64,000 nucleotides of DNA from Mobula hypostoma (Eukaryota), in contig NC_086097.1 of NCBI RefSeq assembly GCF_963921235.1, forward strand, positions 159,466,001 to 159,530,000, given 5' to 3'. Of the stretch, positions 7,513 through 59,575 are shown in pieces. A program made the position numbers and the translations under genes. The stretch's first letter is position 1. Every line of letters begins with the position of its first letter. The notes under the pieces are model-generated. The model saw only the letters and a program-made list of their open reading frames with translations. It had not been told where the DNA came from and searched no databases.

Positions 7513-7593
7513 TCATAAGTGACAGCTGTGAAGGAAAGGGACTGGTGTGTACATTAACTGAACATTCACATCAGAATTCAAACATCCAGGATC
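7513..7593 (-). CDS. Predicted terminal coding exon of unidentified host gene (DPGCLNSDVNVQLMYTPVPFLHSCHL*)
   Basis: Acceptor ttgcacttacag|G, phase 0 matching the previous exon, TGA at 7513-7515, AATAAA on minus strand at 7324-7329. Confidence 0.55.
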   Translation of the reverse strand, partial: DPGCLNSDVNVQLMYTPVPFLHSCHL

Positions 7594-8208
7594 CTGTAAG
7601 TGCAACCATAGATGTGAAGAATCATAAAAATGATCAACAGTCTTTAAGCTTTATAAGCCTGGACAAAGAAAATTCAAGAGCACTGAGACTAAGATGGCAT
7701 CTTACAAGCCACGGGTATGCAGAATGTTCATTTTTCAGTGCACCAGGAACCCATATCCAATGTTAATAAAGTAAAACAAACATTTTAAAAACATTATTGT
7801 ATTTACAAATCATGTAGCTCATTGCCTACTTGTAAATAAATATGACTGTTGGTTTAGCCTGACTATAAGATGAGGGGAAGAAGGAGCGTGGAGGATAATG
7901 GCACATGAAGACCCACTAACATATGGAGGCAACGTGAGCAGCCACACTCACAGGGAAGAAGAATAAGGGCATTATTAAGCTGAAGATACAGTGCACAAGT
8001 ACTTTTAATCTGTGCTACAAGAAAAGAGATTTTTTAATATTGACTGAGAAGGTAGAATTTATGAAATATAACATATATTACACAGGAGTCCACAGCTATC
8101 AGTATCATTCACCCTTTGTTTCATTGAGAGTTAAAATTAAGTGGTTATAGGTTACGACCTTTTGATCCAATTTCTGCTGGTGAGTAATTACTCGGCACCA
8201 GTAATTAC

Positions 8209-8367
8209 CTCACCAGCAGATGACCTCTCCACATGCACAAAATATGATCCAGAAATTATAGCAGACTTGGGTGACAGTGAGCGGATGTGCCAGGTACAAT
8301 CTCCCAATGGTTGTATCTTTGTTAAAAAAAAAGGCCGAAACCCATCTAAAAGTATGTAAACACTGTC
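8209..8367 (-). CDS. Predicted internal exon, 159 nt, phase 0-0 (DSVYILLDG...ERSSAGE)
   Basis: Acceptor aag|GAC, donor GAG|gtaatt, open frame in non-repeat DNA. Confidence 0.65.
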
Positions 8368-8504
8368 CTTTTGCAATTTATATATAAAAAATTGTGGCAA
8401 ATTGGTTCAGAATTTAAATGTTACAGTGTTAGTTTCAGCACCTTTTGTAGGCAGCTTATGTGGCCTCTGATGTTTTATAGAAATTATTTGATTGCACTCC
8501 AGAG

Positions 8505-8818
8505 GGATGATAGAGAGGCAGTTAGCACAACACTTTACAACACCAGCAATTCCTTCCTGCCGTTATTTGTCAGGAGCTGGTATGTTCTCCCTGAGACTGT
8601 GTTGGCTTCCCTTGAATGCTCTGGTTTCCTCACACATTCCAAAGATGTATGGGTTAGGGTCAGTAGGTTGTGGGCAAGCTATATTGAAGCCAGAAGCATG
8701 GCAACATTTATGGGCTGCCCCCAGCCTAGCCTCAGACAGTGTTGGTCGCTGACACAGATGACGCATTTCACTACATGTTTTGATGTGCATGTGATAAATT
8801 AAGCAAGTCTTAATCTTG
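8505..8818 (+). mobile_element. V-SINE-type SINE, degenerate
   Basis: V-domain-like core tatgttctccctgagactg...tgctctggtttcctcacacattccaaagatg and a LINE-like tail. Confidence 0.7.
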
Positions 8819-10107
8819 ATTGTAGCTCAAATGAAGTTCTGGCAGTACTTAAGATGTTAGGAGAAAGTCTGAATTGTTGCACTACTTTTACAGCATTCAT
8901 GAAGTAAATGTGTAGAGCATTCTGCACATGAAATATGCTAGATGGATTTTGTATTAAATTTCAGGGAGAGAAGAACAGGTCCAAAGTGAGCTACTTTTAG
9001 TTTAAATAATGGAAACTATAAGTGTATGAAGTCATGGTCAATGAGAGTAAACTGCCAAATAAGTCAATGGGCCAGTTGGTTGAGAATTGGTATAAATATT
9101 GAAGGATCATTCAGCACACATAGAAAAATTCCAAGTGGAATGTCATGGTTAATTAGTGAATTGAAATAATTGTTAAACCGAGCTATAGTGAACAACTTTG
9201 TTCTGCATATAGATGTCATTTCACCACATCAGTGCATTGAGGCAATACAAGGAAAAATAATAACAGAATGTAATAAGGTACAAGGTCATAATGAGGTAGA
9301 TTGTGAGGTCAAGTGCCCATCTTATCATACAAGGGGACCGTTCAAAATTCTTATAAACAGTGGTTGGAAGTTGTCCTTGAGCAGGTTTCAAATTAAAAGT
9401 AAATTATGGACAGATACACAGATCAAGATATTGGACAGAATGTAGAAAATAGTGATAATGACTAAAAGATTAATAAGGAAATAAATGTACAAGATAAATC
9501 TAGCCAGAAATACACACACAGATCATCAAATAGTTAGAGCTGCAATTTATTTTAAACAATTTAATTCTTAAGTGACAGACTTATCCCTCTGTAACATCAA
9601 ATTATTTTTATTGATACATCCTTTTATTCCACATATTCAGCCTCATGTTCCTGAAATACTTTTCATCAATTAGAGTTATATCTTGCCTAAGGGAAGATGG
9701 CTGTGGTTGTTGGATGCCATTCACCTCATACCTAGGACATTTTTTTAACGTCCTTAAACTGACCATCCTCAACTCTAATGACTTGACTTAGTGTTCAGTG
9801 TCAATATAGTTGAGTCAATTCTAAACTCCCATTGTCTTTGCACTATCTACATACAGGGAACAAGTCAGAATTATATTGGAATAATTACTTACTAGATGCA
9901 CAGCACTAACAGCAGCAATTAGCTTAACACCATTCAGGAGTGATACTCATCCATTAAGTTAAACATTTATAAGCTCCACTATTAGTGAATCATGACTACA
10001 GTATGTAGCACTTACATTAAACATTGTAATTATTTACCAAGGTTTCTGTGATAAAACTTCCTAAACTATAATTTCTAATACTGAAACTCTTCTTTTCCTT
10101 CTTAAGA

Positions 10108-10870
10108 AGACCACAAGACCACAAGACATACTTAAGGAGCAGAATTTAGCCGTTCAACCCATCAAATCTGCTCCACTATTCAATCTTGGCTGATTTATTT
10201 CCCCTCTTAACTCCATTCTAATGCCTTCTCCCCATAACTTTTGATGCCCTTACCAATCAGAAACCTATCAACCTCAACTTTAAATATACTCAATGACCTG
10301 GCTCCTCGGCCATCTGTGGCAATGAATTCTACAGATTCACCTCCATCTGACTAAATAAATTACTCCTTATCTCTGTTCTGAAGATACATCCCTCCATTCT
10401 GTGGCTGTGCCCTCTAGTCCTAGACTCTCTGACTACTGGAAACATCCTTCCCACATCCACTCTATTAATGCCTCTCAATATTCAGTAGATTTTATCGGAT
10501 CTTCCCTCATTCAATTAAACTCCAGCAAGTACAGACCCAGAGCTATCAAACATTCCTCATACATAAACCCTTTTATTCCCAGGATCAGTTTTAGTAAACC
10601 TCCACTGGATCTTCCCCAATGCCAGCTAATCCGTTCTTAGCTTTGGGGTCCAAAAACTGCTCTCAATACTCCAAATTAGGTCTGACCAATGCTCTTTAAA
10701 ACCTTAACATTGCATACTTGTTTTAATATACCAGTCCTCTGGGAACGAATGCTAATATTGCATCCTTAATACTAACTCAGCCTGCAGCTTAACACTTAGG
10801 GAACCCTGCACAAGGATTCCCAAGTTCCTTTGCATCTCTGATTAGAAAATAGTCTCTGCCTTTTTTCCTT
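10108..10870 (-). mobile_element. CR1 3' fragment
   Basis: (gaccacaa)n tail at the left end; RT C-terminal sequence like the other CR1 copies. Confidence 0.8.
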
Positions 10871-11488
10871 CAATCAAAGTGCATAAGCATAGCCCGTGAG
10901 ATTGAGGATGATTTGATTCCAGTCCATTTCCATGTATTTTCCTGTGGTTAATGAGGCTAATATGGGTCTCCCAGACTCTACCAGCTCAGGGGAAGACGGT
11001 GTTCAATGGGCTAGTAAGTAGATTTTTGCAAGCTTTGGTTTATGCCACTTTCACGTTTTCACTGGACTTACATTTGCTCTTATTGAAAATTCTTTACTCT
11101 AATGCGGCAGTCAAGTGCTAAAAATATCCTAGGTCTCAATGAGGATGTCAATGAGAATATGTTTGAAGCCTTTACTCGGGAAATCTCTTGTCTTGACAGA
11201 GTTTAGACTACCTTCTGTGAGAGTCTGGTATTGAGCATGCAGATAGTGTGGTTCATACATCTGAGATAGTTGAACTTAGCTAGAGCCTTAAACTGTGGAC
11301 TGGTAAGAGGATCCAGACACTAGTTCATTTAACCTGCAGGTGAACTTGAAAGATTTTGTAGAATCATCATTGTGCTGCTCATCAGTCCTTTGAAGTACCC
11401 AACCATTCATGGTTCTCTCCAAGTTGCACATCATCTTCACTGGGACATATATGTCCATTTCTTCCCAAAGCAGTAAAAATTTCCTTAC

Positions 11489-11585
11489 ATAGGGTGTAAC
11501 TTTCCCACATAGCTCCAGTGTTTCAAGAGGATAGCATACAATTATTTTCTCAAAGGCAACCAGCATATTATTTTTAAGAAATAAT
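11489..11585 (-). CDS. Predicted internal exon, 97 nt, phase 2-0 (LFLKNNMLVAFEKIIVCYPLETLELCGKVTPY)
   Basis: Acceptor aatcag|A, donor TAT|gtaagg; phase-compatible on both sides. Confidence 0.65.
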
Positions 11586-12092
11586 CTGATTCCATAATAA
11601 AATATATATATAGTTCAGGAAGATGAAAACTTTCTTTGGACTTCCTTGCATTATGTTTCCTGCATATCAATGAGTTTCAATCAGACACTAATGAAACACT
11701 TTATAGAAAAGCCAATGAAGTAAAATGCTGAAATTTTGACTACACGGACAGTATTCACAAATTGACTGCCCATCATACAAGGTGCTGTGAAACACAGGCT
11801 GCTTAAATATGAAACTACAATCATGCTATAATGAAAATATAAAAACAGCTTGCATAGAAAGCAATGAAAACTGACAGTTTTGCTCCAGAAGATCTATTTT
11901 TTTCCCCATAAGTTTGTTTGTCAAGTATAAGGAAGAGTATCGCTCCACACTAAATTCATTTCTGAATATCACCTGGCTGTAAATTAAGGATTTATTGACT
12001 GTCTACAATATTGTGATACCCAGTTGCTTTGCCCATTTCATACATTTACACCAGAAGGGAATCTCAGTTGGGTTAAGTTAATTGATAATTAC

Positions 12093-12127
12093 CTCTCAAA
12101 AGATGAATACCAAAATGAGGCTTCAGT
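12093..12127 (-). CDS. Predicted internal exon, 35 nt, phase 0-2 (TEASFWYSSFER)
   Basis: Acceptor ttattag|ACT, donor GAG|gtaatt; AG|A forms Arg with the next exon. Confidence 0.5.
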
Positions 12128-12133
12128 CTAATA

Positions 12134-12723
12134 ACAGGAATTCTGCAGATGCTGGAAATTCAAGCAACATACATCAAAGATGCTGGTGAACGCAGCAGGC
12201 CAAGCAGCATCTATAGGAAGAGGCGGAGTCGACATTTCAGGCCGAGACCCTTCGTCAAGACTAACTGAAGGAAGAGTGAGTAAGGGATTTGAAAGCTGGA
12301 GGGGGAGGGGGAGATGCAAAATGATAGGAGAAGACAGGAGGGGGAGGGATAGAGCCGAGAGCTGGACAGGTGATAGGCAAAAGGGGATACGAGAGGATCA
12401 TGGGACAGGAGGTCCGGGAAGAAAGACGGAGGGGGGGTGACCCAGAGGATGGGCAAGAGGTATATTCAGAGGGACAGAGGGAGAAAAAGGAGAGTGAGAG
12501 AAAGAATGTGTGCATAAAAATGAGTAACAGATGGGGTACGAGGGGGAGGTGGGGCCTAGCGGAAGTTAGAGAAGTCAATGTTCATGCCATCAGGTTGGAG
12601 GCTACCCAGACGGAATATAAGGTGTTGTTCCTCCAACCTGAGTGTGGCTTCATCTTTACAGTAGAGGAGGCCGTGGATAGACATGTCAGAATGTGAATGG
12701 GATGTGGAATTAAAATGTGTGGC
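12134..12723 (-). mobile_element. Penelope-like element, 5'-truncated (GIY-YIG C-terminus and pLTR with tail)
   Basis: Near-identical to 54965-55564; TSD cagtc(t/a)aata at 12124-12133 and 12724-12733. Confidence 0.92.
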
Positions 12724-13372
12724 CAGTCAAATATAATCTAGAAATGTCATTCTCTTTACACCCCACCCTTTTGTTCTGGTGCTCACTACCACAAGGCACA
12801 GAAGACTTCCACCACAACAGATTTACTGCTGGAAGCTCTTCAAACTTTATTTCATATCCAAGTATTGGCTTACATGTTTTCTTCTTATGGGTCCCTACAT
12901 ATAGAGGTGTTGAGGGGAATGAGTGGGTTGATTGCTTGGCCAAAATAGTTGTTAACATTTCATCTGTGGATATACGAGTGGTGATTGATAAGTTTGTGGC
13001 CGAAGGTAGAAGGAGTCAATTTTAGAAAACCTTGCACATTTATTTTTCCTACATTTACACACTTAGTCCAGTGGTCATGGAACATACGGATCCCTGCTTT
13101 GTAGAAGTCGGCGTCTTGGACCTCCAGAAGTAGTCCACAGCTGGGGTGATTGGTAAATTCGTGGCCTAAGGTAGAAGGACATGAGTTATTAACTTGAAAC
13201 TTTCTGCATTTTCATTCAAAGAGTTGAACTGCACGTGCATGTAACGACAGCTGCATAACTCATGTCCTACTACCTAAGGCCAGGAACTTATCAATCAGCC
13301 CTGCTGTGGACAACTTCTACAAAGAAGGGATCTGTATGCTCTACGACCACTGAACTAAGTGTGTACATGTAG

Positions 13373-13862
13373 GATTAGATTAGGTTATTATGAGGACACA
13401 CAGCTCTCTTTTATTGTCATTTAGTAATGCATGCATTAAGAAATAATACAATATTCCTCCGATGTGATATCACAGAAACACAAGACAGACCAAGAGTGAA
13501 AAACTGACAAAAACCACATTATCATAACATATAGTTACAACAATGCAAGCAATACCATAACTTGATGAAGAACAGGCCATGGGCATGGTTAAAAAAAGTT
13601 CAAAGTCTCTCGAAAGTCCCACATCTCACGCAGATGGGAGAAGGACGAAAACTCTCCCCGCCATGCCCGACCACAATCCGATTCTGAGTCGACCGAAAAC
13701 TTCGAGCCTCCGACCAGCCCTCCGACACCAAGCACCGAGCACCATCTCTGCTGAGCACTTCAACCCCAGCCCCAGCCACCAGCAGCAGGCAAAGCCAAGG
13801 ATCTAGGGCCTTCACTCCGGAGATTCTCGTTCGCACAGTAGCAGCGGCAGCAAACCGGGCAT
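13373..13862 (-). mobile_element. ~670-bp non-autonomous retroposon, copy 2 (5'-truncated)
   Basis: Reverse complement of about 1437-1958. Confidence 0.85.
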
Positions 13863-13876
13863 GTTGAAAAGGGGAC

Positions 13877-14061
13877 ACACATAAAAGTTGCTGGTGAATG
13901 CAGCAGTCCAGGCAGCATTTTTCAGTTAGTCCTGACGAAGGGTCTCGGCCTGAAACGTCGACTGCACCTCTTCCTAGAGATGCTGCCTGGCCTGCTGCGT
14001 TCACCAGCAACTTTTATGTGTGTTGCTTGAATTTCCAGCATCTGCAGAATTCCTGTTGTTT
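13877..14061 (+). mobile_element. Mini fold-back Penelope pLTR insertion
   Basis: 16-bp perfect TSD atgttgaaaaggggac (13861-13876, 14062-14077); about 43-bp inverted arm followed by pLTR and tail. Confidence 0.88.
13928..13963 (+). ncRNA. Minimal type I hammerhead ribozyme motif, intact core
   Basis: AGTC-CTGACGA-(A)GGGT ctcg GCCT-GAAAC-GTC^GACT; stem I AGTC/GACT; predicted cut after 13959. Confidence 0.8.
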
Positions 14062-15205
14062 ATGTTGAAAAGGGGACTATGTTGAAAAATTTTCCTTTGC
14101 TACATCGACAACAGCATTGGCGCTGCTTCCTGTACGCATGCTGAGCTCGTTGATTTTATTAACTTTGCCTCCAACTTTCACCCTGCCCTCAAGTTTACCT
14201 GATCCATTTCTGCCACCTCCCTCCCCTTTCTAGATCTTTCTGTCTCTATCTCTGGAGACAGCTTATCTACTGATGTCTACCATAAGCCTACTGACTCTCA
14301 CAGCTATCTGGACTATTCCTCTCCTCACCCTGTCTCTTGGAAAAATGCCATCCCCTTTTCGCAATTCCTCCGTCTCCGCCGCATCTGCTCTCAGGATGAG
14401 GCTTTTCATTCCAGGACGAAGGAGATGTCCTCCTTTTTTAAAGAAAGGGGCTTCCCTTCCTCCACCATCAAATCTGCTCTCAAACGCATCTCCCTCATTT
14501 CACGCACATCCTCTCTCACTCCTTCCTCCCGCCATCCCACTAGGAATAGGGCTCCCCTGGTCCTCACCTACCACCCCACCAGCCTCCGGGTCCAACATAT
14601 AATTCTCCGTAACTTCCGCCACCTCCAATGGGATCCCACCACTAGGTACATCTTTCCCTCCCCCCGCCGCTCACACACACAGGAATCGCTCCCTATGCGA
14701 CTCCCTTGTCAATTTGTCCCTCCATCCCTCCCCAACAATCTCCCTCCTGGCACTTATCCTTGTAAGCGGAATAAGTGTTACACATGCCCTTACACTTCCT
14801 CCCTCACTACCATTCAGGGCCCCAGACAGTCCTTCCAGGTGAGGCGACACTTCACCTGTGAGTTGGCTGGGGTGATATATTGCGTCCGGTGCTCCCGATG
14901 TGGCCTTCTATATATTGGCGAGACCCAACGCAGACTGGGAGATCATTTTGCTGAACACCTACGCTCTGTCCACCAGAGAAAGCAGGATCTCCCAGTGGCC
15001 ACACATTTTAATTCCACGTCCCATTCTCATTCTGATATGAATATCCACGGCCTCCTCTACTGTAAAGATGAAGCCAGACTCAGGTTGGAGGAACAACACC
15101 TTATATTCCGTCTGGGTAACCTCCAAACTGATGGCATGAACATTGACTTCTCAAACTTCCGCTAATCCCCCACCTCCCCCTCGTACCCCATCCGTTATTT
15201 ATTTA

Positions 15206-18021
15206 CTCTATTGGGGGTATTCTATAGGCCCCCTGGTAGCAGCAGAGATACAGAGGAGCAGATTGGGAGGCAGATTTTGGAAAGGAACAAAAGTAACAGG
15301 GTTGTTATCATGGGTGACTTTAACTTCCCTAATATTGATTGGCACCTGATTAGTTCCAAGGATTTAGATGGGGCAGAGTTTGTTAAGTGTATCCAGGACG
15401 GATTCCTGTCACAGTATGTGGACAGGCCGACCAGGAGGAATGCCATACTAGATCTAGTACTAGGTAATGAACCAGGTCAGGTCACAGATCTCTCAGTGGG
15501 TGAGCATCTGGGGGACAGTGACCACCGCTCCCTGGCCTTTAGCATTATCATGAAAAAGGATAGAATCAGAGACGACAGGAAAATTTTTAATTGGGGAAAG
15601 GCAAATTATGAGGCTATAAGGCTAGAACTTGCGGGTGTGAATTGGGATGATGTTTTTGCAGGGAAATGTACTATGGACATGTGGTCGATGTTTAGAGATC
15701 TCTTTCAGGATGTTAGGGATAAATTTGTCCCGGTGAGGAAGATGAAGACTGGTAGGGTGAAGGAACCATGGGTGACAAATGAGGTGGAAAATCTAGTCAG
15801 GAGGAAGAAGGCAGCATACATGAGGTTTAGGAAGCAAGGATCAGCTGGGTCTATTGAGGAATATAGGGAAGCAAGAAAGGAGCTTAAGAAGGGGCTGAGA
15901 AGAGCAAGAAGGGGGCATGAGAAGGCCTTGGCGAGTAGGGTAAAGGAAAACCCCAAGGCATTCTTCAATTATGTGAAGAAAAAAAGGATGACAGGAGTGA
16001 AGGTAGGACAGATTAGAGATAAAGGTGGGAAGATGTGCCTGGAGGTTGTGGAAGTGAGTGAGGTCCTCAATGAATACTTCTCTTCGGTATTCACCAATGA
16101 GAGGGAACTTGATGGTGGTGAGGACACTATGAGTGAGGTTGATATTCTGGAGCATGTTGATATTAAGGGAGAGGAGGTGTTGGAGTTGTTAAAATACATT
16201 AGGACGGGTAAGTCCCTGGGACCTGACGGAATATTCCCGAGGTTGCTCCACGAGGTGAGGGAAGAGATTGCAGAGCCTCTGGCTAGGATCTTTATGTCCT
16301 CGTTGTTCACGGGAATGGTACCGGAGGATTGGAGGGAGGCGAATGTTGTCCCCTTGTTCAAAAAAGGTAGTAGGGATAGTACGAGGGGGAGGTGGGGCAA
16401 TAGTGGAAGTTTGATTAATTATCCCTGGGTAATTATAGACCAGAGAGCCTTATGTCTGTGGTGGGAAAGCTGTTGGAAAGGATTCTTAGAGATAGGATCT
16501 ATAGGCATTTGGAGAATCATGGTCTGATCAGGGACAGTCAGCATGGCTTTGTGAAGGGCAGATTGTGTCTAACAAGCCTGATAGGCAACAGGAATTCTGC
16601 AGATGCTGGAAATTCAAGCAACACACATAAAAGTTGCTGGTGAACGCAGCAGGCCAGGCAGCATCTCTAGGAAGAGGTGCAGTCGACGTTTCAGGCCGAG
16701 ACCCTTCGTCACGAAGGGTCTCAGCCTGAAATGTCGACTGCACCTCTTCCTAGAGATGCTGCCTGGCCTGCTGCGTTCACCAGCAACTTTTATGTGTGAA
16801 GCCTGTTAGAGTTCTTTGAGGAGGTGACCAGGCATATAGATGAGGGTAGTGCAGTGGATGTGATCTATATGGATTTTAGTAAGGCATTTGACAAGGTTCC
16901 ACATGGTAGGCTTATTCAGAAAGTTAGAAGGCATGGGATCCAGGGAAGTTTGGCCAGGTGGATTTAGAATTGGCTTGCCTGCAGAAGGCAGAGGGTGGTG
17001 GTGGAGGGAGTACATTCAGATTGGAGATTGTGACTAGTGGTGTCCCACAAGGATCTGTTCTGGGACCTCTACTTTTCATGATTTTTATTAACGACCTGGA
17101 TGTGGGGGTAGAAGGGTGGGTTGGCAAGTTTGCGGAAGACACAAAGGTTGTTGGTGTTGTAGATAGTGTTGAGGATTGTCAAAGATTGCAGAGAGACATT
17201 GATAGGATGCAGGAGTGAACTGAGAAGTGGCAGATGGAGTTCAACTCGGAGAAGTGTGAGGTGGTACACTTTGGAAGGACAAACTCCAAGGCAGAGTACA
17301 AAGTAAATGGCAGGATATTTGGTAGTGTGGAGGAGCAGAGGGATCTCGGGGTACATGTCCACAGATCCATGAAAGTTGCCTCACAGGTGGATAAGGTAGT
17401 TAAGAAAGCTCATGGGGTGTTAGCTTTCATAAGTCGAGGGACAGAGTTTGAGAGTCGCGATGTAATGATGCAGCTCTATAAAACTCTGGTTTGGCCACAC
17501 TTGGAGTACTGTGTCCAATTCTGGTCACCTCACTATAGGAAGGATGTGGAAGCATTTGAAAGGGTCCAGAGGAGATTTACCCGGATGCTGCCTGGTTTAG
17601 AAAGTATGCATTATGATCAGAGATTAAGGGAGCTAGGGCTTTACTCTTTGGAGAGAAGGAGAATGAGAGGAGACATGATAGAGGTGTACAAGATAGTAAG
17701 AGGAATAGATAGAGTGGATAGCCAGTGCCTCTTCACCAGGGCACCACTGCTCAATACAAGAGGACGTGGCTTTAAGGTAAGGGGTGGGAAGTTCAAGGAG
17801 GATATTAGAGGAATATTTTTTACTCAGAGAGTGGTTGGTGCGTGAAATGCACTGCCTGAGTCAGTGGTGGAGGCAGATACACTAGTGAAGTTTAAGAGAC
17901 TACTAGACAGGTATATGGAGGAATTTAAGTTGGGGGCTTATATGGGAGGCAGGGTTTGAGGGTCGGCACAACATTGTGGGCCGAAGGGCCTGTACTGTGC
18001 TGTACTGTTCTATGTTCTATG
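15206..18021 (+). mobile_element. CR1 LINE, 5'-truncated within APE, relatively young
   Basis: 438-aa open stretch (YRPP, GDFNFP, GDSDH, GPDG), [15 protein letters not shown], (tgttcta)n tail. Confidence 0.95.
16585..16798. mobile_element. Palindromic mini Penelope pLTR insertion inside CR1
   Basis: Arms about 16622-16708 and 16711-16797 are reverse complements; TSD aagcctg(a/t)tag at 16574-16584 and 16799-16809. Confidence 0.9.
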
Positions 18022-18278
18022 TTTATATACACACATTCTTTTTCTCTCTCTTCTTTTTCTCCCTCTATCCCTCTGACTATACCCCTTGCCCATCCTTTGG
18101 TTTTTCCCCTCCTCCCCCTTTTCTTTCTCCCTAGTCCTCCTGTCCCATGATCCTCTCATATCCCTTTTGCCAATCAACTGTCTAGTTCTTGGCTCCATCC
18201 CTCCCCCTCCTGTCTTCTCCTATCATTTCAAATCTCCCCCTCCCCCTCTCAAATCCCTTACTAGCTCTTCTTTCAGTT

Positions 18279-18314
18279 AGTCCTGACGAAGGCTCTCAGC
18301 CCGAAACGTCGACT
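18279..18314 (+). ncRNA. Minimal hammerhead motif, intact core with variant stem II
   Basis: AGTC CTGACGA aggctctcagccc GAAAC GTC GACT. Confidence 0.7.
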
Positions 18315-20054
18315 GTACCTCTTCCTAGAGATGCTGCCTGGCCTGCTGCGCTCACCAGCAACTTTTATGTGTGTTGTTTGAAAAATAAATGTGCTAGGTT
18401 TTCTAAAATTGATTCCTTCTACCTTAGGCCTCAAACTTATCAATCACACCTCATAAGTCTTCCACTTAGCAAATCAGAAGCTAAGGGGTTGGTAGGGTTA
18501 AGGATTAGGGGATTATGTCAAGACTTGTGGGATAATGGGCATAAGGGAGGACATCTTTACAGAATACATAAAACTGCTGGGTTGATGGGAGAAGGGGGTA
18601 AAATGAGAAGTGAAGGAATTATATTGATTTGACTTAGAATTAGGCATACTATGCTTCATTATTCCTTAGATCTTGTTGGAAAACATTACTCTGGGGTGTG
18701 TAGGTTTTGTCATCATTATGAAATGTTTGAAGACATAATATTATAGAGTGAAGCATATAAGGTGGATAGAAATCAAAATCAGGCTTCATTACTATCTTTG
18801 GGGTTGTTAGTTTACATTTAAAAACTTTAAGTTATGGAAGTGACTTTAATTTAATTCACAATATTGTATTTAATTATTTACAATTTTTAGGGCTGTTTGG
18901 GGTAATGTAGTTGTCATTTGATGAAAAACTAGTTGGGGTTTTGTTTCCCAGTTCTCAACACCACACTCCAGTCCAGTTGGTGGCGATAATGCACCTTTAA
19001 GTTGGACTGCCAGCTGCCATTAAAAGTCAGTGGAAGAAGACTTCCCTCACACCCAAGAGGATACATACATGGATAATATTTTACATCTTAAAGTACTTGT
19101 AGCAGAATGCCCCATTAAAGCAAATTAGTATCTACTCACCAGTTGATCATCTGTGACATTTTAAGTAGGACATTTTAAGGTACAATAAAACTCTGATATC
19201 CAGTCCACTTAGGGCTTTCGTAGAAATTGACTAGCAGAATCTCCAGAATATTGGATGTCACTCTCTTAAGGGAACAGCTGTGCTTAGGGAAGAATTAAAT
19301 TGCCTGTGCAAGATGTTGTATAATAATAGGCATACAATTTGGAATAGGTACCACTGGATCATTAACTTCCTTACCAGGAGACCACAGTCTGTGTGGATTG
19401 GAGGTAACACCCTCTCACTGACAATCAACACTGGCACACCTCAATGATATGTGGCTAGGCACAGCTCAAATGCCACCTATAAATTTACCAATGACACAAC
19501 TATTGTATGGAAGAATTTCAGATAGTGATGAGGAGGTGTACAGGAGTGAGATAGATCAGCTGGTTGAGTGGTGTCAAAGCAACAACATTGCACTCAACAT
19601 CAGTAACAGCAAGGAATTGATTGTGGACTTCAAGAAGGAGAACAAAAATGAAGGAAAATACTCCAGTCTTTATTGAGGTATCAGAAGTGGAAAGGGTGAG
19701 CAATTTCAAGTCCATGGGTGTTAATACATTCTGATGAAATATCCTGGGCCAAACATACTGATGTAATTACAAAGATGCATAACAGCATCTATTTTCATTG
19801 AGAGTTTGAGAGTAATTTGTACGTCACCAAAGACACTCGCAGATTTCCACAGAGGTGCTGTGATATTCAAACTGATTGCATCACCGTCTGATATGGAGGA
19901 GCCACTGCACAAGGTCGGAAGAAGCTGCAGAAAGTTGTGAAATAAGCCAGCTCCATCATGGACACTAGGCTCCCCAGCTTCCACATCATCAATGCTGCAC
20001 AACTTCATGTGTGTAACCCATTATAGCATGCCATGGGCACTAGTCTTCCCAGCA

Positions 20055-21338: not shown

Positions 21339-21434
21339 CCTTCAAACAGCAATGCCCCTAAAAGGCAGTATCCATCATTAAGGACATCCATCACCCCGGA
21401 GATGCGCTCTTCTCATTGTTACCATCAAAAAGGA

Positions 21435-22177: not shown

Positions 22178-22612
22178 GAGGTACTGCAGCTTGAAGACAC
22201 ACACTCAACATTTCATGAACAGCTTCTTCCCCTCTGGCATCAGACTTCTGAATGGACAATGTACCCATGAACACTAGCTCAATGTTTTTTCCCCACTCTA
22301 TTTGCACTTCTTAGTGTATTTGATTTAATTTACTTCTTATTGTAATACATAGTTTTATTATTATGTATTGCAATGTAGTGGTGCTGCAAAATGACAAATT
22401 TCATGATATATGCTAATAATATTAAACCTGATTCTGATATCTATTCATTAAGAAAGGTAAAATGTGTAGGAACTCGGTAGGAATATAATTCTGCACAAAA
22501 TCCATGAAACTACCATCAATTGTCAAATGGAGATAGATCAAGTGACAATAGATTATTGCAACTTGGAAATGTTTTATACTTTATTTTTAAAAGTTGGGTC
22601 CCGACAAAGGGG

Positions 22613-23662: not shown

Positions 23663-23785
23663 ATGCATGTTGGCCAAACCAGCAGCATCCACATAACATG
23701 AACACTACTTAAACAACAATGCAATTATTCCATCTATTCTATTCCACAAAATATTAAAATAACCAGTGAATTTCTTTCCTTTTAC

Positions 23786-27778: not shown

Positions 27779-27870
27779 TACTCCTGGGTGGACTAAAGAT
27801 GTTCCCAGAGGAACGTGGTCCAACTTCTCCTTCAAAGCTCCAAAAAGTGACAAGCAATGACATCACTTGG
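27779..27870 (-). CDS. Predicted internal exon, 92 nt, phase 2-1 (QVMSLLVTFWSFEGEVGPRSSGNIFSPPRS)
   Basis: Acceptor ttttcttgctacaaag|C, donor GTA|gtaagc. Confidence 0.65.
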
Positions 27871-28099: not shown

Positions 28100-28213
28100 T
28101 TCAGCAAGGGTTGTGGGAGCAATTCGTCACCACAATTATAACTGAAGAAATTGAAATGATGTATCACAACCATGGTAAATTCCTGAAATTTTTGCTGCTG
28201 TTGCTGGATTCTT
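28100..28213 (-). CDS. Predicted internal exon, 114 nt, phase 2-2 (RIQQQQQKFQEF...ELLPQPLL)
   Basis: Acceptor catacttcag|A, donor GAA|gtcagt; only one open frame. Confidence 0.65.
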
Positions 28214-33345: not shown

Positions 33346-33382
33346 ACAACTCTGTGTATCACACACAGACTAATTATTTCTT
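33346..33382 (-). CDS. Predicted internal exon, 37 nt, phase 1-2 (EEIISLCVIHRVV)
   Basis: Acceptor tttcttaatttctctcag, donor TGT|gtaagt. Confidence 0.55.
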
Positions 33383-48736: not shown

Positions 48737-48928
48737 GACCCAGCGGCTCCTCCAAAGGCAGCAACTCGAGCCAGCAGCCCCTCCGAGGGCAGGAACTCGA
48801 GCCAGCGGCTCCTCCGAGGGCAGGAACTCGAGCCAGCGGCTCCTCCGAGAGCAGGAACTCAAGCCAGCGGCTCCTCCGAGGGCAGGAACTTGAGCCAGCG
48901 GCTCCTCCGAGGACAGTAACTTCAGCCA
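48737..48928. repeat. 31-bp GC-rich minisatellite, about 6 units, within an unclassified insert (about 48390-49000)
   Basis: gagccagcggctcctccgagggcaggaactc at 48768, 48799, 48830, 48861 and 48892. Confidence 0.92.
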
Positions 48929-50084
48929 GTGGCCTTCCAAGGTCAGCGACTACAGAAGGCTGCCTGCAAAGTCAAAACCTTCATGCTGACAATAGAGCTG
49001 TTCTTTCTGAAGGGGAATTGAAAACCAGCACTTCGCACAAGGGATAATGGAAATCCAAAAGTTTTGTCCACCAAGCACAGTGGTATTCACACTTTCAGTG
49101 CTGAGACTGAGATTTGTCTTTTATTAGTCTATCAAAAGCTAAGGTTGTCATCAAAGATTACGTGGCATGGAAAACCTAATGAGTTCCTACTGGTCTTATT
49201 GCCTAAGATTAATAAAAGACAAGGTGATATGGCAAAAGGGAATATTTTAATGATTAAACAAAACAGGAACTAGCATCTGCAGTCAGAGTGGTGGAATCAT
49301 TTAATGAGAAAATGGGCATTCCAAGAAAGGGATACTGTAACCTTTCTAAATGGAGAGTGGCCTAATCACTACTAATCCTCTTGTCATCTCTTATGAACTG
49401 CTATAGATTAATGTTAGTTTTTCAAAGCTAAAAAATCTCATCATTGCAGAAAGAAGCAGTAAATAGACATTTATGATATAGGGCAAAAGCGACATTTATG
49501 CCCAGTTTCCAGTGACTTGGACAAGATGCAGGGGTTAGGGCTTATTCTGTCCTCTCAGCCAGCGAGGAGCAAATAATGAATGAAATTCTAAAGAGGAAAT
49601 GACAGCGATAATTATCAGCAAACCTCAGTGCTTCTTTCTTTTTTGAAACTTTGTTTGGTCATCTACGTATATCTGATAAAGATAATGAGATTTTTAGCTT
49701 TATTTCTATGCTGCCCACTGGCACTAAGATAAGATGAAAAACTCTTCACATCCACAGAAGGAATTATCCAACTTGCCACATCGCAACTACTGGAATGTGA
49801 AACTAGTTTTTCCGGATTAACCTCAATTCATAATTCACCCATCAAAAAGCAATGAATGAAAGTAATAGGGCAAAAATCACTTCACAAAGGTGGAAAAATT
49901 GTAAAATAAATGAAAAATAGAAGAGGAAAGTAGGTAGAAGTGCCGTCATTAGACCAATTTGGGTACAAGTTAGTCCATGGGAGCTTTCTACCTAACATGG
50001 TCACAAAAATCAAAAGTTTTTTTTTCCTGCTCTAGTTTCCATACAAACTCATTTATATATAATTGGAAGGAAAATTTTCTACAG

Positions 50085-51507: not shown

Positions 51508-51509
51508 GT

Positions 51510-51829: not shown

Positions 51830-51854
51830 CTTTCAAACTACTTCCAAATATAAC
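51830..51854 (-). CDS. Possible 25-nt micro-exon, phase 0-1 (VIFGSSLK)
   Basis: Acceptor ctgcttatag, donor AAG|gtagct; bridges the phases of its neighbours. Confidence 0.35.
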
Positions 51855-53438
51855 CTATAAGCAGTAATTAGTTTTTGAAAATACTAGAATAGATACATAC
51901 ATAAGCACTGCTATCTGAGAAAGTAGCAATTTATCAGCTCACAGTGGGAGGCCACAAGAAATCAGTTTTTTGAAAACTGACGTGATCATGATAAACACTG
52001 GTCAAATGTGCTGACAATAAGGCTATAGTAATTGGACCCCACTGAAATCCGCGGAATGAGATCAAGAAAGGTTCCAGACATGTTATTTGCCATTTAGCAT
52101 GTCAAAAACGGTCAGAACCATATTTATTCTGTCAATCAATACTTGAATATTTGTGTATTCAGAGAGTCAGCTTTATGCAACTGTAAAAAGGATGTTTTGG
52201 GTTTTGCCCTTTGATGCTTTTAGAATTTCAATGAGAACAACCATGTGCTAACAAAGATGTTGAAACAGTCAGAGGTGGTCTTTTCAGTTTAGTGGTGTTT
52301 CAATTCTAAAAGTAATTCTGTGGAACTATTGGTTAACACAAAATATTTAAATAAACTATAGAATTGTAACGACTCTAATTATACTTAATTATCTGTTCTC
52401 TTTGTATTTAAAGGATTTTAAAAATTCAATGTAATTTCAGTTAAGAGATACTTTCAACATGCTTGCTTGTGCTAAATCATCATCAGGTTTATTACTTCTG
52501 CCATACAGTATGTTGTGCAATTTGCTGTTATCCTGCAGGAGCACAGTGAAAAGATATAAAGCATACTAGAAGTTACCGTAAATAATTAAGTAGCGCAGAA
52601 GAGGATTGTTCATGGATCGTTCAGAAATCTGATGGTGGAGGAAAAAATCTGTTCCTAGAATGTTGAATGTGGGTTTTCAGGCTCCTTCCTGCATGTGAAG
52701 AGGTCATGTCCCAGATGGTGAGGGTTCTTGATAGTGGCTGCTTCCTTCTTGAGGCACTGCATTTTAATGATGTCCTTGATGGTGGGAAGGTATCTAGTGA
52801 TGGAGATACCTGAGTCTAAACCCTCTGCATCCTTTGATGAGATTCACAGATCCTGCACAGTGAAGTCTCTGTTCAAAGTGATGATGCAAGCAATCAGAAT
52901 GACCTTCACCATCGTCATCATCAGGTACCGTGCCCAGTTTGAGCTTTGACTGCCATGGCCCACACTCTCTTGTTTCAGTTCAAGTGGATCAATTCTTTGG
53001 TATTCCTTTCCAGTTCTCTGGCTGCTGTCTCCATCATCATTTGTTTTTGCCTTCCTTTTGCTTTCTTCCCTTCAACCTTTCCCATAATTACTATGCATTC
53101 TAACTCCTCTTTCCTAATCACACGTCCAATGAAGTTACGTTGCCTTTTCATGATCTCATACATTATCTCTCTTTTTGTACTTGCTCTGTTCATGCCATCC
53201 TCGTTAGATATTCATTTCATCCATGATATTCTTTGCAAAAACGACATCTCTGCTGCTTCAATTCGTTTCCTCGTGTTACTAGATATTGTCCAACATTCTG
53301 ATCCATATAACATAACTGGACAAACATAACATTTCAGTACTCTGAGGCAGGTTGTCATGCCTAGTTTAGTATTGGTCAACACACATCAAAGTTGCTGGTG
53401 AACGCAGCAGGCCAAGCAGCATCTATAGGAAGAGGCGC

Positions 53439-53474
53439 AGTCGACATTTCAGGCCGAGACCCTTCGTCAGGACT
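53439..53474 (-). ncRNA. Minimal hammerhead motif, GAAAT variant
   Basis: Minus strand AGTC CTGACGA agggtctcggcct GAAAT GTC GACT. Confidence 0.6.
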
Positions 53475-55433
53475 AACTGAAGGAAGAGTGAGTAAGGGAT
53501 TTGAAAGCTGGAGGGGGAGGGGGAGATGCAAAATGATAGGAGAAGACAGGAGGGGGAGGGATAGAGCCGAGAGCTGGACAGGTGATAGGCAAAAGGGGAG
53601 ACGAGAGGATCATGGGACAGGAGGTCCGGGAAGAAAGATGGGGGGGGGTGACCCAGAGGATGGGCAAGAGGTATATTCAGAGGGACAGAGGGAGAAAAAG
53701 GAGAGTGAGAGAAAGAATGTGTGCATAAAAATGAGTAACAGATGGGGTACGAGGGGGAGGTGGGGCCTAGCGGAAGTTAGAGAAGTCAATGTTCATGCCA
53801 TCAGGTTGGAGGCTACCCAGACAGAATATAAGGTGTTGTTCCTCCAACCTGAGTGTGGCTTCATCTTTACAGTAGAGGAGGCCGTGGATAGAAATGTCAG
53901 AATGGGAATGGGATGTGGAATTAAAATGTGTGGCCACTGGGAGATCCTGCTTTCTCTGGCGGACAGAGCGTAGATGTTCAGCAAAGCGGTCTCCCAGTCT
54001 GCGTCGGGTCTCACCAATATATAAAAGGCCACATCGGGAGCACCGGACGCAGTATATCACCCTAGTCGACTCACAGGTGAAGTGATGCCTCACCTGGAAG
54101 GACTGTTTGGGGCCCTGAATGGTGGTAAGGGAGGAAGTGTAAGGGCATGTGTAGCACTTGTTCCGCTTACACGGATAAGTGCCAGGAGGGAGATCAGTGG
54201 GGAGGGATGGGGGGGACGAATGGACAAGGGAGTTGTGTAGGGAGCGATCCCTGCGGAATGCAGAGAGAGGGGGGGAGGGAAAGATGTACTTAGTGGTGGG
54301 ATCCCGTTGGAGGTGGCGGAAGTTACGGAGAATAATATGTTGGACCCGGAGGCTGGTGGGGTGGTAGGTGAGGACCAGGGGAACCCTATTCCTAGTGGGG
54401 TGGTGGGAGGATGGAGTGAGAGCAGATGTACGTGAAATGGGGGAGATGCATTTAAGAGCGGAGTTGATAGTGGAGGAAGGGAAGCCCCTTTCTTTAAAAA
54501 ATGAAGACATCTCCCTCGTCCTAGAATGAAAAGCCTCATCCTGAGAGCAGATGCGGCGGAGAAGGAGGAATTGCGAGAAGGGGATGGCGTTTTTGCAAGA
54601 GACAGGGTGAGAAGAGGAATAGTCCAGATAGCTGTGAGAGTCAGTAGGCTTATAGGCTCCCTACACAACTCCCTTGTCCATTCGTCCCCCCCATCCCTCC
54701 CCACTGATCTCCCTCCTGGCACTTATCCGTGTAAGCGGAACAAGTGCTACACATGCCCTTACACTTCCTCCCTTACCACCATTCAGGGCCCCAAACAGTC
54801 CTTCCAGGTGAGGCATCACTTCACCTGTGAGTCGACTAGGGTGATATACTGCGTCCGGTGCTCCCGATGTGGCCTTTTATATATTGGTGAGACCCGACGC
54901 AGACTGGGAGACCGCTTTGCTGAACATCTACGCTCTGTCCGCCAGAGAAAGCAGGATCTCCCAGTGGCCACACATTTTAATTCCACATCCCATTCCCATT
55001 CTGACATTTCTATCCACGGCCTCCTCTACTGTAAAGATGAAGCCACACTCAGGTTGGAGGAACAACACCTTATATTCCGTCTAGGTAGCCTCCAACCTGA
55101 TGGCATGAACATTGACTTCTCTAACTTCCGCTAGGCCCCACCTCCCCCTCGTACCCCATCTGTTACTCATTTTTATGCACACATTCTTTCTCTCACTCTC
55201 CTTTTTCTCCCTCTGTCCCTCTGAATATACCTCTTGCCCATCCTCTGGGTCACCCCCCCCCCCAACTTGTCTTTCTTCCCGGACCTCCTGTCCCATGATC
55301 CTCTCGTATCCCCTTTTGCCTATCACCTGTCCAGCTCTCGGCTCTATCCCTCCCCCTCCTGTCTTCTCCTATCATTTTGCATCTCCCCCTCCCCCTCCAG
55401 CTTTCAAATCCCTTACTCACTCTTCCTTCAGTT

Positions 55434-55469
55434 AGTCCTGACGAAGGGTCTCGGCCTGAAACGTCGACT
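55434..55469 (+). ncRNA. Minimal type I hammerhead motif, intact core
   Basis: AGTC CTGACGA agggtctcggcct GAAAC GTC^GACT; predicted cut after 55465. Confidence 0.8.
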
Positions 55470-57789
55470 GCGCCTCTTCATATAGATGCTGCTTGGCCTG
55501 CTGCGTTCACCAGCAACTTTGATGTGTGTTGCTTGAATTTCCAGCATCTGCAGAATTCCTGTTGTTAGTATTGGTCAGTATACTCTTCATTCTCGTAAAG
55601 GTGTCTTTTGCCATCGCTGGTCTTCTTTTGATGTCCATGTCGCACCTGCCATCTGATGTCACCCAGCTTCCTAAGTTGCTAAAGTTCTGTACTTGTTTCA
55701 TGTCTTCCCCATTTACTTTCAGCCTGCAGATAGGATTCTCCTTCTTTTTGGATATGACCAGACATTCTGTCTTTTTGCAATTGATAGAAAGACAGATTTT
55801 TGCACTTTCTTCAACAACTATACCAATTAAGTTTTGTAGTTCTTCCTCCGTACTTGCAATTAATACAGTGTCATCCACACATCTGAAATTATTGATGTTT
55901 TCACCACCAACTTGAATTCCCAAGATGTCTCTTATTTTTTGTAATATTGTTTCACTGTACACATTAAACAAATCAGGGGAGAAAACATACCCTTGTCTAA
56001 CGCTTCTCTTGATTTTCGTAAACTGACTCACTTCTCCATCTATTCTTACAGCGGCAGTTTGTTCCCAGTACAGATTTCTGATTAGGCGGAGGTCTTTTGA
56101 ACCTACATCTAGAGTTTCCTGTAATATTTCAAATAACTTTATTGTGTTTCACTTTATCACATGCTTTTGTGTAGTTGATAAAACAAACAAATCTTTTTTC
56201 ACTTGAATAGCTCATTCTGATAGTATCCTTAACATCAATATTGCGTTTCTTGTACCTTTGTCTTTCACAAAACCACATTGTTCTTTACCTATTTCAGCTT
56301 GTATCTTACTTTTAGCTCTTGTCATCAAAATTCTTAGAGTATCTTACTGATATGACTCATTAAACTTATGGTCCTATGTAATTCACATTCTATTGCTCCT
56401 GCTTTCTTAGGAAGAGTGATAAATACTGATTTTTTCATCTCTTCTGGTACTATTCCAGTCTCATAAATGACATTGATTAAATCAGTAAATTTTTCAATTC
56501 CATAATCTTCAAGAGCGATAATTTGTTCTATTACTAATTCATCAGGACCCGCTGCCTTTTCTTTCTTCATCTTATTTATTGAATTACAAACTTCAGATTT
56601 TAAAATACTTGGACCTTCAATTTTCTTCTTAATTTCTGTTTTTTTGCCTCGACCGTCTTCAAACAATTCCTGAATATACTCAGTCCATCTGTTCATAATC
56701 TCATCTTTTGCCATGATAATAGTACCGTCCTTTGTTTTCAAACATCCACCTGAAGAACAAAAGGGCTTTTTTACCAGTGATCTTCTTGATTTGTTGGTGT
56801 ACCCTTTTTGGATCAGTAATAGGGATTCTTTCTATTTGCTCACATTCCTGGTTTAACCATTCTTCTTTGGCTTTTTGACATAAGCTTTTAATTTTTTTTA
56901 ATCTAAGAACTTATTTTCCATAGGATTTGCTTTCTTCCATTAGATTTTTGGTTTCATCTGTCATCCATTTATTCTTTGTGCTTTTTTCTTTTTTTAGGAA
57001 TCACTGACTTTGTTGATTCTATCAAGGCATCCTTCATTTCTACATGATTGCTATCATCTTCAACAGATTCTATTTCTAGACTTTGAAATCTATTCCTTAC
57101 TTCAATTGTAAATTTTTGTCTTAAGTTTTCTTCTTTAATTAATTGCGAGTAGTCAAGGGGTTGTTCAGGTTTTTGCTTCTTTAGTTTTTGAAGTTTTACT
57201 TTTACGTGACATATTACTGTGTTATGGTCACTATTACAGTCTGCTCCTGGATATGTTTTGCATTGAGTCACTGAGTTTCTAAATCTTGGGTTTATATTAA
57301 TAAAGTCAATTTGATTTCCGGTGCTATCACCTGGACTTTTCCAGGTCCACAAGCATCTTGAATACAGAAAAATTCTATGAAGAGCTTGAACAAGCACAGG
57401 ATGGATGTATAGTTATTGTCATTGGAGATCTAAGTGCTAAAGTAGGACAAGGTGCTGATGGAAATATCATAGGAAAATTTGGACTGGGGAAAGAAATGAA
57501 AGAGGTGAGAAATGGGAGAGTGGTGCAAGATGAATAATCAGGTCATTATGAATCTTCACCACACATCTGTTGAAACTTGCAACTCTTTGATGATATGCCA
57601 TATGTTAACCCCTTGAAGTCCTGTTGCATTTACACTTTTTTCATATATATACTGAACTCTTTTCATAATAGATACAGCAAATACAAACATTTTTCTGCAT
57701 ACATTCTGCATACAAACATTTCTCTGCATTCATTATAGCATCAGTTCAATGCATTTTCTTACAAATCATCAAAGCCACTCGTTTTTGTC

Positions 57790-59390
57790 CTTAACCAAGA
57801 GGCCTTGAATATCTATTGTGGTCCTTCCCCATGGAACGTGTGTGGTGTCTGCAACAACCCTCAGCGCATCCATCATCATGTATTCTGTCCTTTAGAATAC
57901 TTCATTCAGAAGCAGCCACTTATGGACATCCCTTTGCTCTTGAAGACCAACGGATTTCAGACAGATCCAAAGTCTTTCAAACTTCGAGCTGGTCTGGCTA
58001 AAGGGGCGTATTGTTGAAATAGGGGATAGACAGTGAGTCATTTCATCTATACTGCAACCATCTCAAGAGCAACTTGGCATTGAGACATTGACTGCATATG
58101 AAGACTATGACCAAGAGTCCCTTCTCACTGCCATACCTATAAGGTTTTTCTGTTTGTTTATGAACACAGGAGAAGCATTCTGCTCAATTTCTTTGCTAGT
58201 TCTCATGGGTAACCAACCCTAAGGTTCTCTGGGATATTGCCTGATGGCCTTGTGATTAAAGGTGGTTAACTGCAGAAACTTTTCTATATTGGACAGGTGG
58301 TATAGCAAGATCTAACTGAATGGAACATTACATGGCAACAAGGCCAGGCTCATCCTTTGCTGCCCTGGGGACAGGAGGGACCTCATCATGTAGAGATGAT
58401 TGGTGTGTACATACTCAGGCACCTTGCGTAGTTTGGTGCAGCTACACACCCAGCTCCATAGAACCATTGTGCAACCCTGCCAGTAAGCCATCACTTCTGG
58501 AAGTTTTACTCATGTCATTGAACAGATGGAGTTTGTCAGTGGTTAGTCTATACCCTCCCATTTGCTGTCATTTGGAAGTTCCAGGAGCTTGTGTGCTATC
58601 TATGGGCTGTCTGACATACCAACCAGCACAGAAGGATTTGCAAATCTACAACATGTCCAGTTCAGAGGATGTTATGGTGTCACCTCTTCCTTAAGGCTAT
58701 GTATCGCAGATATCTTAGTGTGAAGATTTTTGGAGAAGTCACAAAAACAATTTTCTTCGATGGGGTAGAATCTGGATTGGAAGTTGATCATGAGCATTCC
58801 AGGGACATGAGCAGATCTGTCTGCTTTTTACATCTTGAAATTCTCCTGAGCATCTACTCCCATTGACTGCAGCAGCAGTAGATTCTACAGTTTTCTGGAG
58901 TTGAGATATCTCCTTCAACTCAGTTTTCTGACAACTTTGAGGATGAAGAATCTCTTGATGTGAGCTCCGATTGTTTTCCACTAGTGTTATCGTTCTTCAT
59001 GGTTCTCAAAGCCGCATAATGCCTCTTCAGGTCCTTGATGTTTTCTGTGGCCAGCATTTTGTTATTCATCTTCCATATCCTTCTCTGAGTCTTTGATCTT
59101 CCAGAAAGAAGCAGTGGTCAGAGAAGAACATCAGGAAAACGTTAGCAGATCAGACTGTGAGCACTTTGGACACAAAGAGAAAGTCCATCCTAGAGCAAAC
59201 TAATCACTTGGCCAAGAACAGGCAAATTGCCATGACAAAGGGTTGCTGAAGATGCTGCAAACATGTAGTTGAATTTTCTGGTCAGAACAGCTGGGGAGAC
59301 AATGCCAACAGTGGTGAGAGCTGCTAAAGGACAGCCAGTCATTTGTTCTTCATCAGGGTGTACACATTGAATAGATGGAGCAGTGAGTTT
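57790..59390 (+). mobile_element. Highly degenerate LINE remnant (possibly Ingi/Vingi or RTE-X)
   Basis: Only faint APE/RT-like fragments and more balanced composition than the flanks. Confidence 0.3.
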
Positions 59391-59527
59391 CTATACATTG
59401 CACCTGCCACTGACAACCTTTCTGACTACAAATGATGGTGAAGTTGCTCCGGTCTTCTGTGGTTCATCTGAAATCACACATCCAATGTTAAAATCTTCCA
59501 CAATCCAATGCTATCTTTCTCACTTAC

Positions 59528-59575
59528 TGTTAAGTATGAAGAAATGTTTGCAATTTCCTTGTAATTATTGCATGT
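59528..59575 (-). CDS. Predicted internal exon, 48 nt, phase 0-0 (TCNNYKEIANISSYLT)
   Basis: Acceptor ctttgtgatttcccag, donor ACA|gtaagt; single open frame. Confidence 0.5.

What the first reader, a model, noticed from the sequence alone, without database searches (positions are those of the whole stretch)
7513..59575. Hidden minus-strand host gene of ten short exons threading the TE field
Seen: GT-AG exons 59528-59575, 51830-51854, 33346-33382, 28100-28213, 27779-27870, 23786-23889, 12093-12127, 11489-11585, 8209-8367 and 7513-7593 lie only in unique DNA. They join in phase to 792 nt: TCNNYKEIANISSYLTVIFGSSLKEEIISLCVIHRVVRIQQQQQKFQEFTMVVIHHFNFFSYNCGDELLPQPLLNQVMSLLVTFWSFEGEVGPRSSGNIFSPPRSMTMMIENLQRHLFPVLYGSKYDMEALTLEVEMFPPTEASFWYSSFERLFLKNNMLVAFEKIIVCYPLETLELCGKVTPYDSVYILLDGFRPFFLTKIQPLGDCTWHIRSLSPKSAIISGSYFVHVERSSAGEDPGCLNSDVNVQLMYTPVPFLHSCHL*. 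I do not recognise the protein, so it may be uncharacterised. The shortest exons are the least certain, and others may be missing.
Basis: inference. Interest (0 to 1): 0.7.

Follow-up and report, generated by a model that had tools for sequence, protein, structure and literature searches.

The report
Unidentified gene broken by a transposon
The hidden exons most likely belong to the tail end of a real but unidentified protein gene in a cartilaginous fish, and a jumping element has landed inside one of its coding exons, so the gene is probably dead or survives only by splicing around the insertion.

Summary
The ten AG..GT segments exist and join in phase as stated, but that alone is weak: 66 minus-strand and 81 plus-strand candidate exons of like quality lie in the same low-repeat DNA, and the peptide's composition looks intronic. 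(1) The '35-nt exon 7' is the stump of a 271-nt exon split by a 5'-truncated Penelope retroelement with a 10-bp target duplication. With the insert removed, the frame stays open for 79 more codons up to an acceptor (chance about 1%). Best reading: the 3' part (344 or more codons) of a recently disabled gene. No homologue was found. A resemblance to the GREB1 C-terminal region is recalled only; phage TAGT profiles did not support it. Rival: the gene lives through an in-frame, transposon-made intron.

The parts
59528..59575 (-). candidate exon 1 (48 nt, phase 0-0); not the first exon of the gene; uncertain
   Evidence: AG/GT, scores 8.2/6.8; many equal candidates nearby
51830..51854 (-). candidate exon 2 (25 nt, phase 0-1); uncertain
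33346..33382 (-). candidate exon 3 (37 nt, phase 1-2); uncertain
28100..28213 (-). exon 4 (114 nt, phase 2-2)
   Evidence: AG-free zone 41 nt, GT donor
27779..27870 (-). exon 5 (92 nt, phase 2-1), 229-nt intron after exon 4
   Evidence: AG-free zone 51 nt; AAG acceptor
23773..23781 (-). broken donor AAG|GAAAGA: consensus at all seven variable positions, GA for GT at 23778-23777
   Evidence: 7-position score 6.4 against 0.5-3.4 for the eight other donors; 15 of 22,220 flank positions reach it
12973..18455 (.). DNA transposon with terminal inverted repeats and TA duplication (mariner-like, name recalled), holding nested Penelope and CR1 pieces; sits 9 nt before the exon 7 acceptor
   Evidence: inverted match 12973-13065 / 18366-18455, 86%; 6 mismatches in 56; ends
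12725..12963 (-).
   Evidence: open 79 codons in the frame of the 3' part; acceptor 6.4, internal donor 8.0
12134..12723 (-). 5'-truncated Penelope-like retroelement inside exon 7 (insert plus one duplicate = 600 nt)
   Evidence: 10 mismatches in 592 against the copy at 54965-55564, whose frame has a GIY-YIG match, E 7e-4, under the curated cut-off
12724..12733 (-). upstream copy of the 10-bp target duplication, TATTTGACTG (Leu codon TTG in frame)
12093..12127 (-).
11489..11585 (-). exon 8 (97 nt, phase 2-0)
   Evidence: AG-free zone 44 nt
8209..8367 (-). exon 9 (159 nt, phase 0-0), weak AAG acceptor; predicted three beta strands
   Evidence: AG-free zone 74 nt; single-sequence model pLDDT 65
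7513..7593 (-). last coding exon with TGA
   Evidence: acceptor 7.9, AG-free zone 48 nt
7169..7512 (-). candidate 3' UTR with ATTAAA at 7356 and AATAAA at 7329 and 7174
   Evidence: motif match only

Best explanation
The window holds the last ten or so exons (344 or more codons) of a fast-evolving, unannotated protein gene on the minus strand, now disabled in this assembly. Shown: a 5'-truncated Penelope-like element sits between two in-frame halves of one open frame, with a 10-bp target duplication; unspliced read-through stops at codon 84; the donor that would fit that exon's phase reads GA. Inferred: the element inserted by target-primed reverse transcription into coding exon 7; the element's own acceptors, which score higher than the two that keep the frame, lead into a stop, so most transcripts would be truncated and removed by nonsense-mediated decay; the GT-to-GA change and the TTG-to-TAG change are early neutral decay. 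An older mariner-like insertion next to the exon 7 acceptor was tolerated. The order of the two young lesions is not known. The protein was soluble (highest 19-residue hydropathy 1.5), with a beta-rich end; my best guess at its kin, from memory only and at about 0.25, is a very divergent relative of the GREB1 C-terminal region, that is a glycosyltransferase-like scaffold with worn catalytic motifs.
For: Target duplication fixes the register without choice; 4 of 6 other copies of the family tested also have 9-16 bp duplications, and the same rebuild restores an RTE frame at 53366/55577 (192+53 codons) as a positive control. Open frame of 79 codons: 0.7% by stop rate, 159 of 15,836 flank positions empirically. 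Near-perfect donor at the required phase: 0.018 expected in the 26 possible positions. Long AG-free zones. Only 7 of 42 donor-acceptor pairings round the insert keep the frame, all through the two weakest of the six acceptors tested (3.9 and 2.4 against 4.6-7.4). Damage expected from neutral decay since insertion (0.4-0.8 nonsense, 0.3-0.6 splice-site hits) fits the one splice hit seen.
Against: No homologue in any search, although earlier notes suggest ray gene models are in these collections. Composition and codon-position bias are intron-like. Branch-point motif not enriched (1 of 8). None of the eight unchanged donors has both -1G and +5G, which by recalled human figures most real donors do. 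Exons 5 and 9 have AAG acceptors. All other exons are free of stops and frameshifts, which fits a living gene as well. Splice scores come from recalled generic frequencies, not from this species. The two probabilities were computed after I saw the sites.
Confidence: 0.52

Rival explanations
1. The gene is alive and splices round the insertion. Either a new intron runs from the exonic donor at 12766 to the AG made in the downstream duplicate, removing the element and 13 codons in frame; or the reader's path is used (exon 6 donor at 23785 to the same AG), dropping about 80 residues. The TTG-to-TAG and GT-to-GA changes would then be compensatory.
For: Both paths are open and in phase. The donor at 12766 is the strongest in the model (8.0). 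No stop or frameshift in the other exons.
Against: The AGs at 12151 and 12142 (6.6, 6.7) lie upstream of the rescuing AG (3.9) and lead to the TAG in frame; before the T-to-A change they would have been open, so that change harms the simplest rescue. The donor at 23785 is the weakest (1.4).
Confidence: 0.22
3. The gene is intact in the species; this assembly shows one null haplotype or an assembly error at the donor.
For: The insertion is young (10 of 592 mismatches to a sister copy); the GA could be a single-base error or variant.
Against: About 0.85% per copy at 7e-10 per generation (PMC10587355, passages read; a shark rate, wide interval) is of the order of ten million generations, long for a segregating null; the duplicate has already diverged.
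Confidence: 0.08

Closest known systems
Unitary pseudogenes made by retroelement insertion into a coding exon (concept recalled)
   Same: Exon-intron structure kept, one large insertion with a target duplication, one broken splice donor, otherwise open exons.
   Different: The working orthologue is not identified, and an in-frame splicing route round the insertion still exists on paper.
Intron gain by intronization of exon parts or by transposon insertion (PMC3488318, passages read)
   Same: A GT in the old exon and an AG at the insertion's far end could excise the element in frame.
   Different: The AG comes from a point change in the target duplication, not from the element; stronger acceptors in the element compete; no transcript shows it. 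The review reports no apparent gain in conserved parts of mammalian genes but many in fast-evolving parts.
GREB1 / GREB1L C-terminal region (Pfam PF20691 TAGT and PF20267 GREB1_C; names confirmed)
   Same: By eye and from memory only: short blocks of the window's peptide fall in the order and spacing I recall for that region (LQRH in exon 6, SFWYSSF in the exon 7 stump, FLK in exon 8, RPFFLT in exon 9).
   Different: No tool supports it: phage TAGT profiles score the peptide like shuffles; no Pfam hit on single exons. By my recalled alignment it would carry a 50-residue insert and a 60-residue tail, and lack the intron that GREB1L has at c.5608+1 (PMC7349314, table read). So it is not GREB1 or GREB1L itself.
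Penelope-like elements with GIY-YIG endonuclease (PMC8557442, abstract start seen in the search listing)
   Same: The insert is the 3' end of such an element: end of the endonuclease frame plus terminal repeat, 5'-truncated.
   Different: Nothing unusual in the element itself; only its landing site matters.

Membership tests
Disabled (unitary) pseudogene | Former coding exons with splice signals and one reading frame | tested here: met
   Frame open over 344 codons once the insert is removed and the exon 6 end is placed at the broken donor; independent tests; composition test neutral.
Disabled (unitary) pseudogene | Disabling lesions | tested here: met
   Insertion with stop at codon 84 on read-through; GA donor; 35 of 42 pairings stop or shift.
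Disabled (unitary) pseudogene | No functional transcript | tested here: inconclusive
   Only three contig sets of uncertain kind were available; they do not decide it.
Disabled (unitary) pseudogene | Intact orthologue in relatives and no working copy elsewhere in the genome | not testable with these tools
   No genome is held for this window; no eukaryotic genomes can be searched; protein searches were blank.
GREB1 / GREB1L family | TAGT glycosyltransferase domain | tested here: inconclusive
   Profiles of 52 and 54 phage or bacterial TAGT proteins: 769 of 3000 and 908 of 3000 shuffles score as high. These are distant from animal GREB1 and only the second half of the domain could lie in the window.
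GREB1 / GREB1L family | GREB1_C domain (PF20267) | tested here: inconclusive
   No Pfam family at E up to 10 for 15 single-exon or single-frame pieces; the spliced peptide could not be scanned, and no prokaryotic member was found in 101 genomes to build a profile.
GREB1 / GREB1L family | N-terminal zinc-binding region and permuted SF2 helicase (PMC7968844, passages read) | not testable with these tools
   Would lie upstream of the window.
GREB1 / GREB1L family | Shared intron positions, e.g. GREB1L c.5608+1 | tested here: inconclusive
   Position from the table; the comparison rests on a recalled alignment, by which it is not shared.
Penelope-like element (the insert) | GIY-YIG endonuclease at the end of the frame, 5' truncation, target duplication | tested here: met
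   98% identical to the end of the copy with a GIY-YIG match (E 7e-4, 20.3 bits, cut-off 22.6); truncation point; duplication.
Cyclic-nucleotide-binding domain proteins (HCN, CNG, SLC9C types) | cNMP-binding domain | tested here: inconclusive
   Profile of 46 bacterial domains: score -2.0, 395 of 2000 shuffles as high; -1.9 for the corrected peptide. No eukaryotic profile was available.

The most novel reading that the evidence does not exclude
A vertebrate gene that databases do not list, possibly a third and very divergent GREB1-type glycosyltransferase-like gene, has survived a Penelope insertion in a coding exon by gaining a new spliceosomal intron whose acceptor arose by one point change in the target duplication. 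This would be a dated case of retroelement-made intron gain in a slowly evolving vertebrate.
Probability: 0.12. Interest if true: 0.78.

Novelty: new member of a known kind. Interest (0 to 1): 0.42.

Why it matters
If dead, it is a datable gene loss in a ray lineage of a gene that the searches here could not name, and the intact copy in sharks or skates would be a new vertebrate protein to describe. If alive, it shows a retroelement insertion in a coding exon turned into an intron. Either way it shows that gene models read from sequence in such genomes can be paths round lesions, and that removing young insertions at their target duplications recovers the true exons.

Tried and rejected
RNA: no RNA holder was listed for 7200-12200; three runs of the same species label, kind guessed, held next to none of the words. 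Laid on 18460-38070 they were swamped by repeats, the tables were cut, no exon junction was among the 15 joints shown of 764, and the bin with exons 4-5 had depth 0.27, 0, 0; this is no evidence on expression. Homologues: exon 9 against 1.84 billion representatives gave 5 hits at E up to 0.001, all multi-stretch matches in repetitive proteins, rejected. ESM Atlas: nothing for two pieces. PDB sequences: 0, 2 chance and 0 hits. Metagenomes: 0 of 184 and 2 of 561 stretches; the two are 8-residue pattern matches with no second exon, rejected. Folds: exon 9 model gave no match at Z 5 or more in 48,161 chains, best 4.3; the 79-residue model had pLDDT 37 and was not searched. Family guesses by eye: cyclic-nucleotide-binding domain (not supported), C2 or PLAT domain (not tested, dropped as pattern-seeing), TAGT (not supported). 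A missing exon in intron 6: 12 candidates with the needed phases, none persuasive. Plus-strand gene: the joined exons have 11-16 stops in each antisense frame. Print: no paper on a third GREB1 paralogue or on this locus appeared in the listings; the original TAGT paper is not held; the alignment in the supplement of PMC7968844 is a picture and could not be seen. Earlier notes: none near the window or by sequence.
Full report
Setting. The window is 41% GC, CpG-poor and about one third self-repeated. Its long frames are retroelement pieces: endonuclease and reverse-transcriptase domains and a GIY-YIG domain. Earlier notes on the same genome call it a ray (unchecked AI notes). No whole genome is held, so nothing outside the window could be read.

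The observation. The other two frames have 19-20 stops and the antisense frames 11-16. Eight of nine donors rank in the top 2-10% of all GT sites; the exon 6 donor ranks at 31%; acceptors range from the top 3% to 68% (matrices from recalled generic frequencies). This does not by itself beat chance. In 20,559 low-repeat bases 66 minus-strand and 81 plus-strand candidate exons pass the same thresholds. The peptide's composition (p 0.33), codon asymmetry (p 0.35) and G1-G2 excess (p 0.06) do not differ from intronic open frames. One signal does stand out: 5 of 8 acceptors have AG-free zones of 40 nt or more, against 11-19% of scored background AGs (p 0.0006-0.007), while a branch-point motif is not enriched (1 of 8).

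The repeat at 12128-12725 ends on the G of the exon 7 acceptor. It is the 3' end of a Penelope-like element, 5'-truncated, with 10 mismatches in 592 to the copy at 54965-55564. It is flanked by a 10-bp duplication with one mismatch, TATTTGACTG upstream and TATTAGACTG downstream. Four of six other copies tested also have duplications of 9-16 bp, and rebuilding the empty site of one of them restores an RTE frame of 192+53 codons, a positive control. The chance is 0.7% by stop rate and 159 of 15,836 flank positions empirically. The rebuilt exon is 271 nt, phase 1 to 2. Just before its acceptor a mariner-like element (name recalled; inverted ends 86% alike, TA duplication) fills 12973-18455 and carries further insertions.

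The second lesion. A phase-1 exon 7 needs a phase-1 donor. Seven bases further, in phase 1, lies AAG|GAAAGA, which matches the consensus at all seven variable positions (6.4 against 0.5-3.4 for the other eight donors) but has GA for GT. Such a site is expected 0.018 times in the 26 possible positions. With both lesions read through, the model has exons of 48, 25, 37, 114, 92, 111, 271, 97, 159 and 81 nt and 344 codons without a stop. Both probabilities were computed after the sites were seen, so they are guides, not formal tests.

Dead or alive. Unspliced read-through stops at codon 84. Of 42 pairings of seven donors and six acceptors round the insert, 7 keep the frame, all through the AGs before 12127 or 12120, which score 3.9 and 2.4; the element's own acceptors score 4.6-7.4 and lie upstream. 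The two nearest, 12151 and 12142, are in frame with phase-0 donors but run into the TAG of the downstream duplicate. By the usual first-AG rule (established knowledge) the transcript would be truncated and degraded. Neutral decay since the insertion predicts 0.4-0.8 nonsense changes and 0.3-0.6 splice-site hits; one splice hit and no other stop or frameshift is seen. That fits a young pseudogene and does not exclude a living gene. At a shark rate of 7e-10 per generation (PMC10587355, passages read) the insertion is of the order of ten million generations old, so probably fixed (inference; the interval is wide and the source copy is unknown).

What the protein is. Not established. The spliced peptide could be tested only against profiles built here. 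It has no transmembrane stretch; exon 9 folds to three strands with no clear structural match. A cyclic-nucleotide-binding reading, seen by eye, failed against 46 bacterial domains. A second reading by eye, the C-terminal region of GREB1 (TAGT glycosyltransferase followed by GREB1_C), rests on recalled sequence: several short blocks fall in the recalled order and spacing. GREB1's layout and wide eukaryotic spread are from PMC7968844 and PMC6163654 (passages read), the GREB1L intron from PMC7349314 (passages and tables read); a preprint (10.1101/2024.03.30.587279, passages read) names only greb1 and greb1L as paralogues. Two phage TAGT profiles gave no support, and GREB1_C could not be tested on the whole peptide. 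Since the first guess by eye felt equally good and failed, I give this one about 0.25.

Verdict. Most likely it is the 3' part of an unidentified, fast-evolving gene disabled by a Penelope insertion in exon 7 and a broken exon 6 donor (0.52). Less likely it lives through a new intron or exon shortening (0.22), is a null haplotype (0.08), or is no gene (0.18). Exons 1-3 are unproven. Known kind of event, unnamed gene; interest 0.42.

Noticed in passing
window 53366-55577: Penelope copy with inverted terminal parts (53377-54245 / 54656-55531, 98.5%) and a 13-bp target duplication; it splits an RTE-type reverse-transcriptase frame that reopens for 192+53 codons when the site is rebuilt.
   Followed up: yes
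window 12973-18455: Stack of nested insertions in a mariner-like element: a LINE piece, Penelope end fragments with 16-bp and 11-bp duplications, and a Penelope copy (9-bp duplication at 14082/18378) itself split by a CR1-type element.
   Followed up: partly
window 35666-43250 (+): Decayed L1/Tx1-like element (name recalled): ORF1-like pieces, an endonuclease piece with a Pfam match at 37467-37973, later RT pieces; interrupted at 38074-38735 by a CR1 end 93% identical to 30908-31574.
   Followed up: partly
window 27073-27307 and 48740-48933: Tandem arrays: 94 bp x 2.5 (95%) and 31 bp x 6.3 (90%).
   Followed up: no
window 29208-29420 (-): Acidic 71-residue open frame with a weak Pfam match (HHV-1_VABD, E 7e-4, under cut-off); probably chance or a retroelement remnant.
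   Followed up: no
window 7516-7524 (-): The peptide ends in CHL, which fits the recalled loose pattern of a peroxisomal targeting signal; untested.
   Followed up: no
window 27505-27716 (-): A high-scoring AG..GT candidate just after exon 5 (scores up to 9.6 and 9.1) with a low-complexity, pyrimidine-rich frame; not part of the model.
   Followed up: no
L142:1462-3188, L156:84-2358, L208:994-3485: Viral contigs with two TAGT-type glycosyltransferase genes side by side after a ParB-like gene (names by eye); fetched only to build a profile.
   Followed up: no
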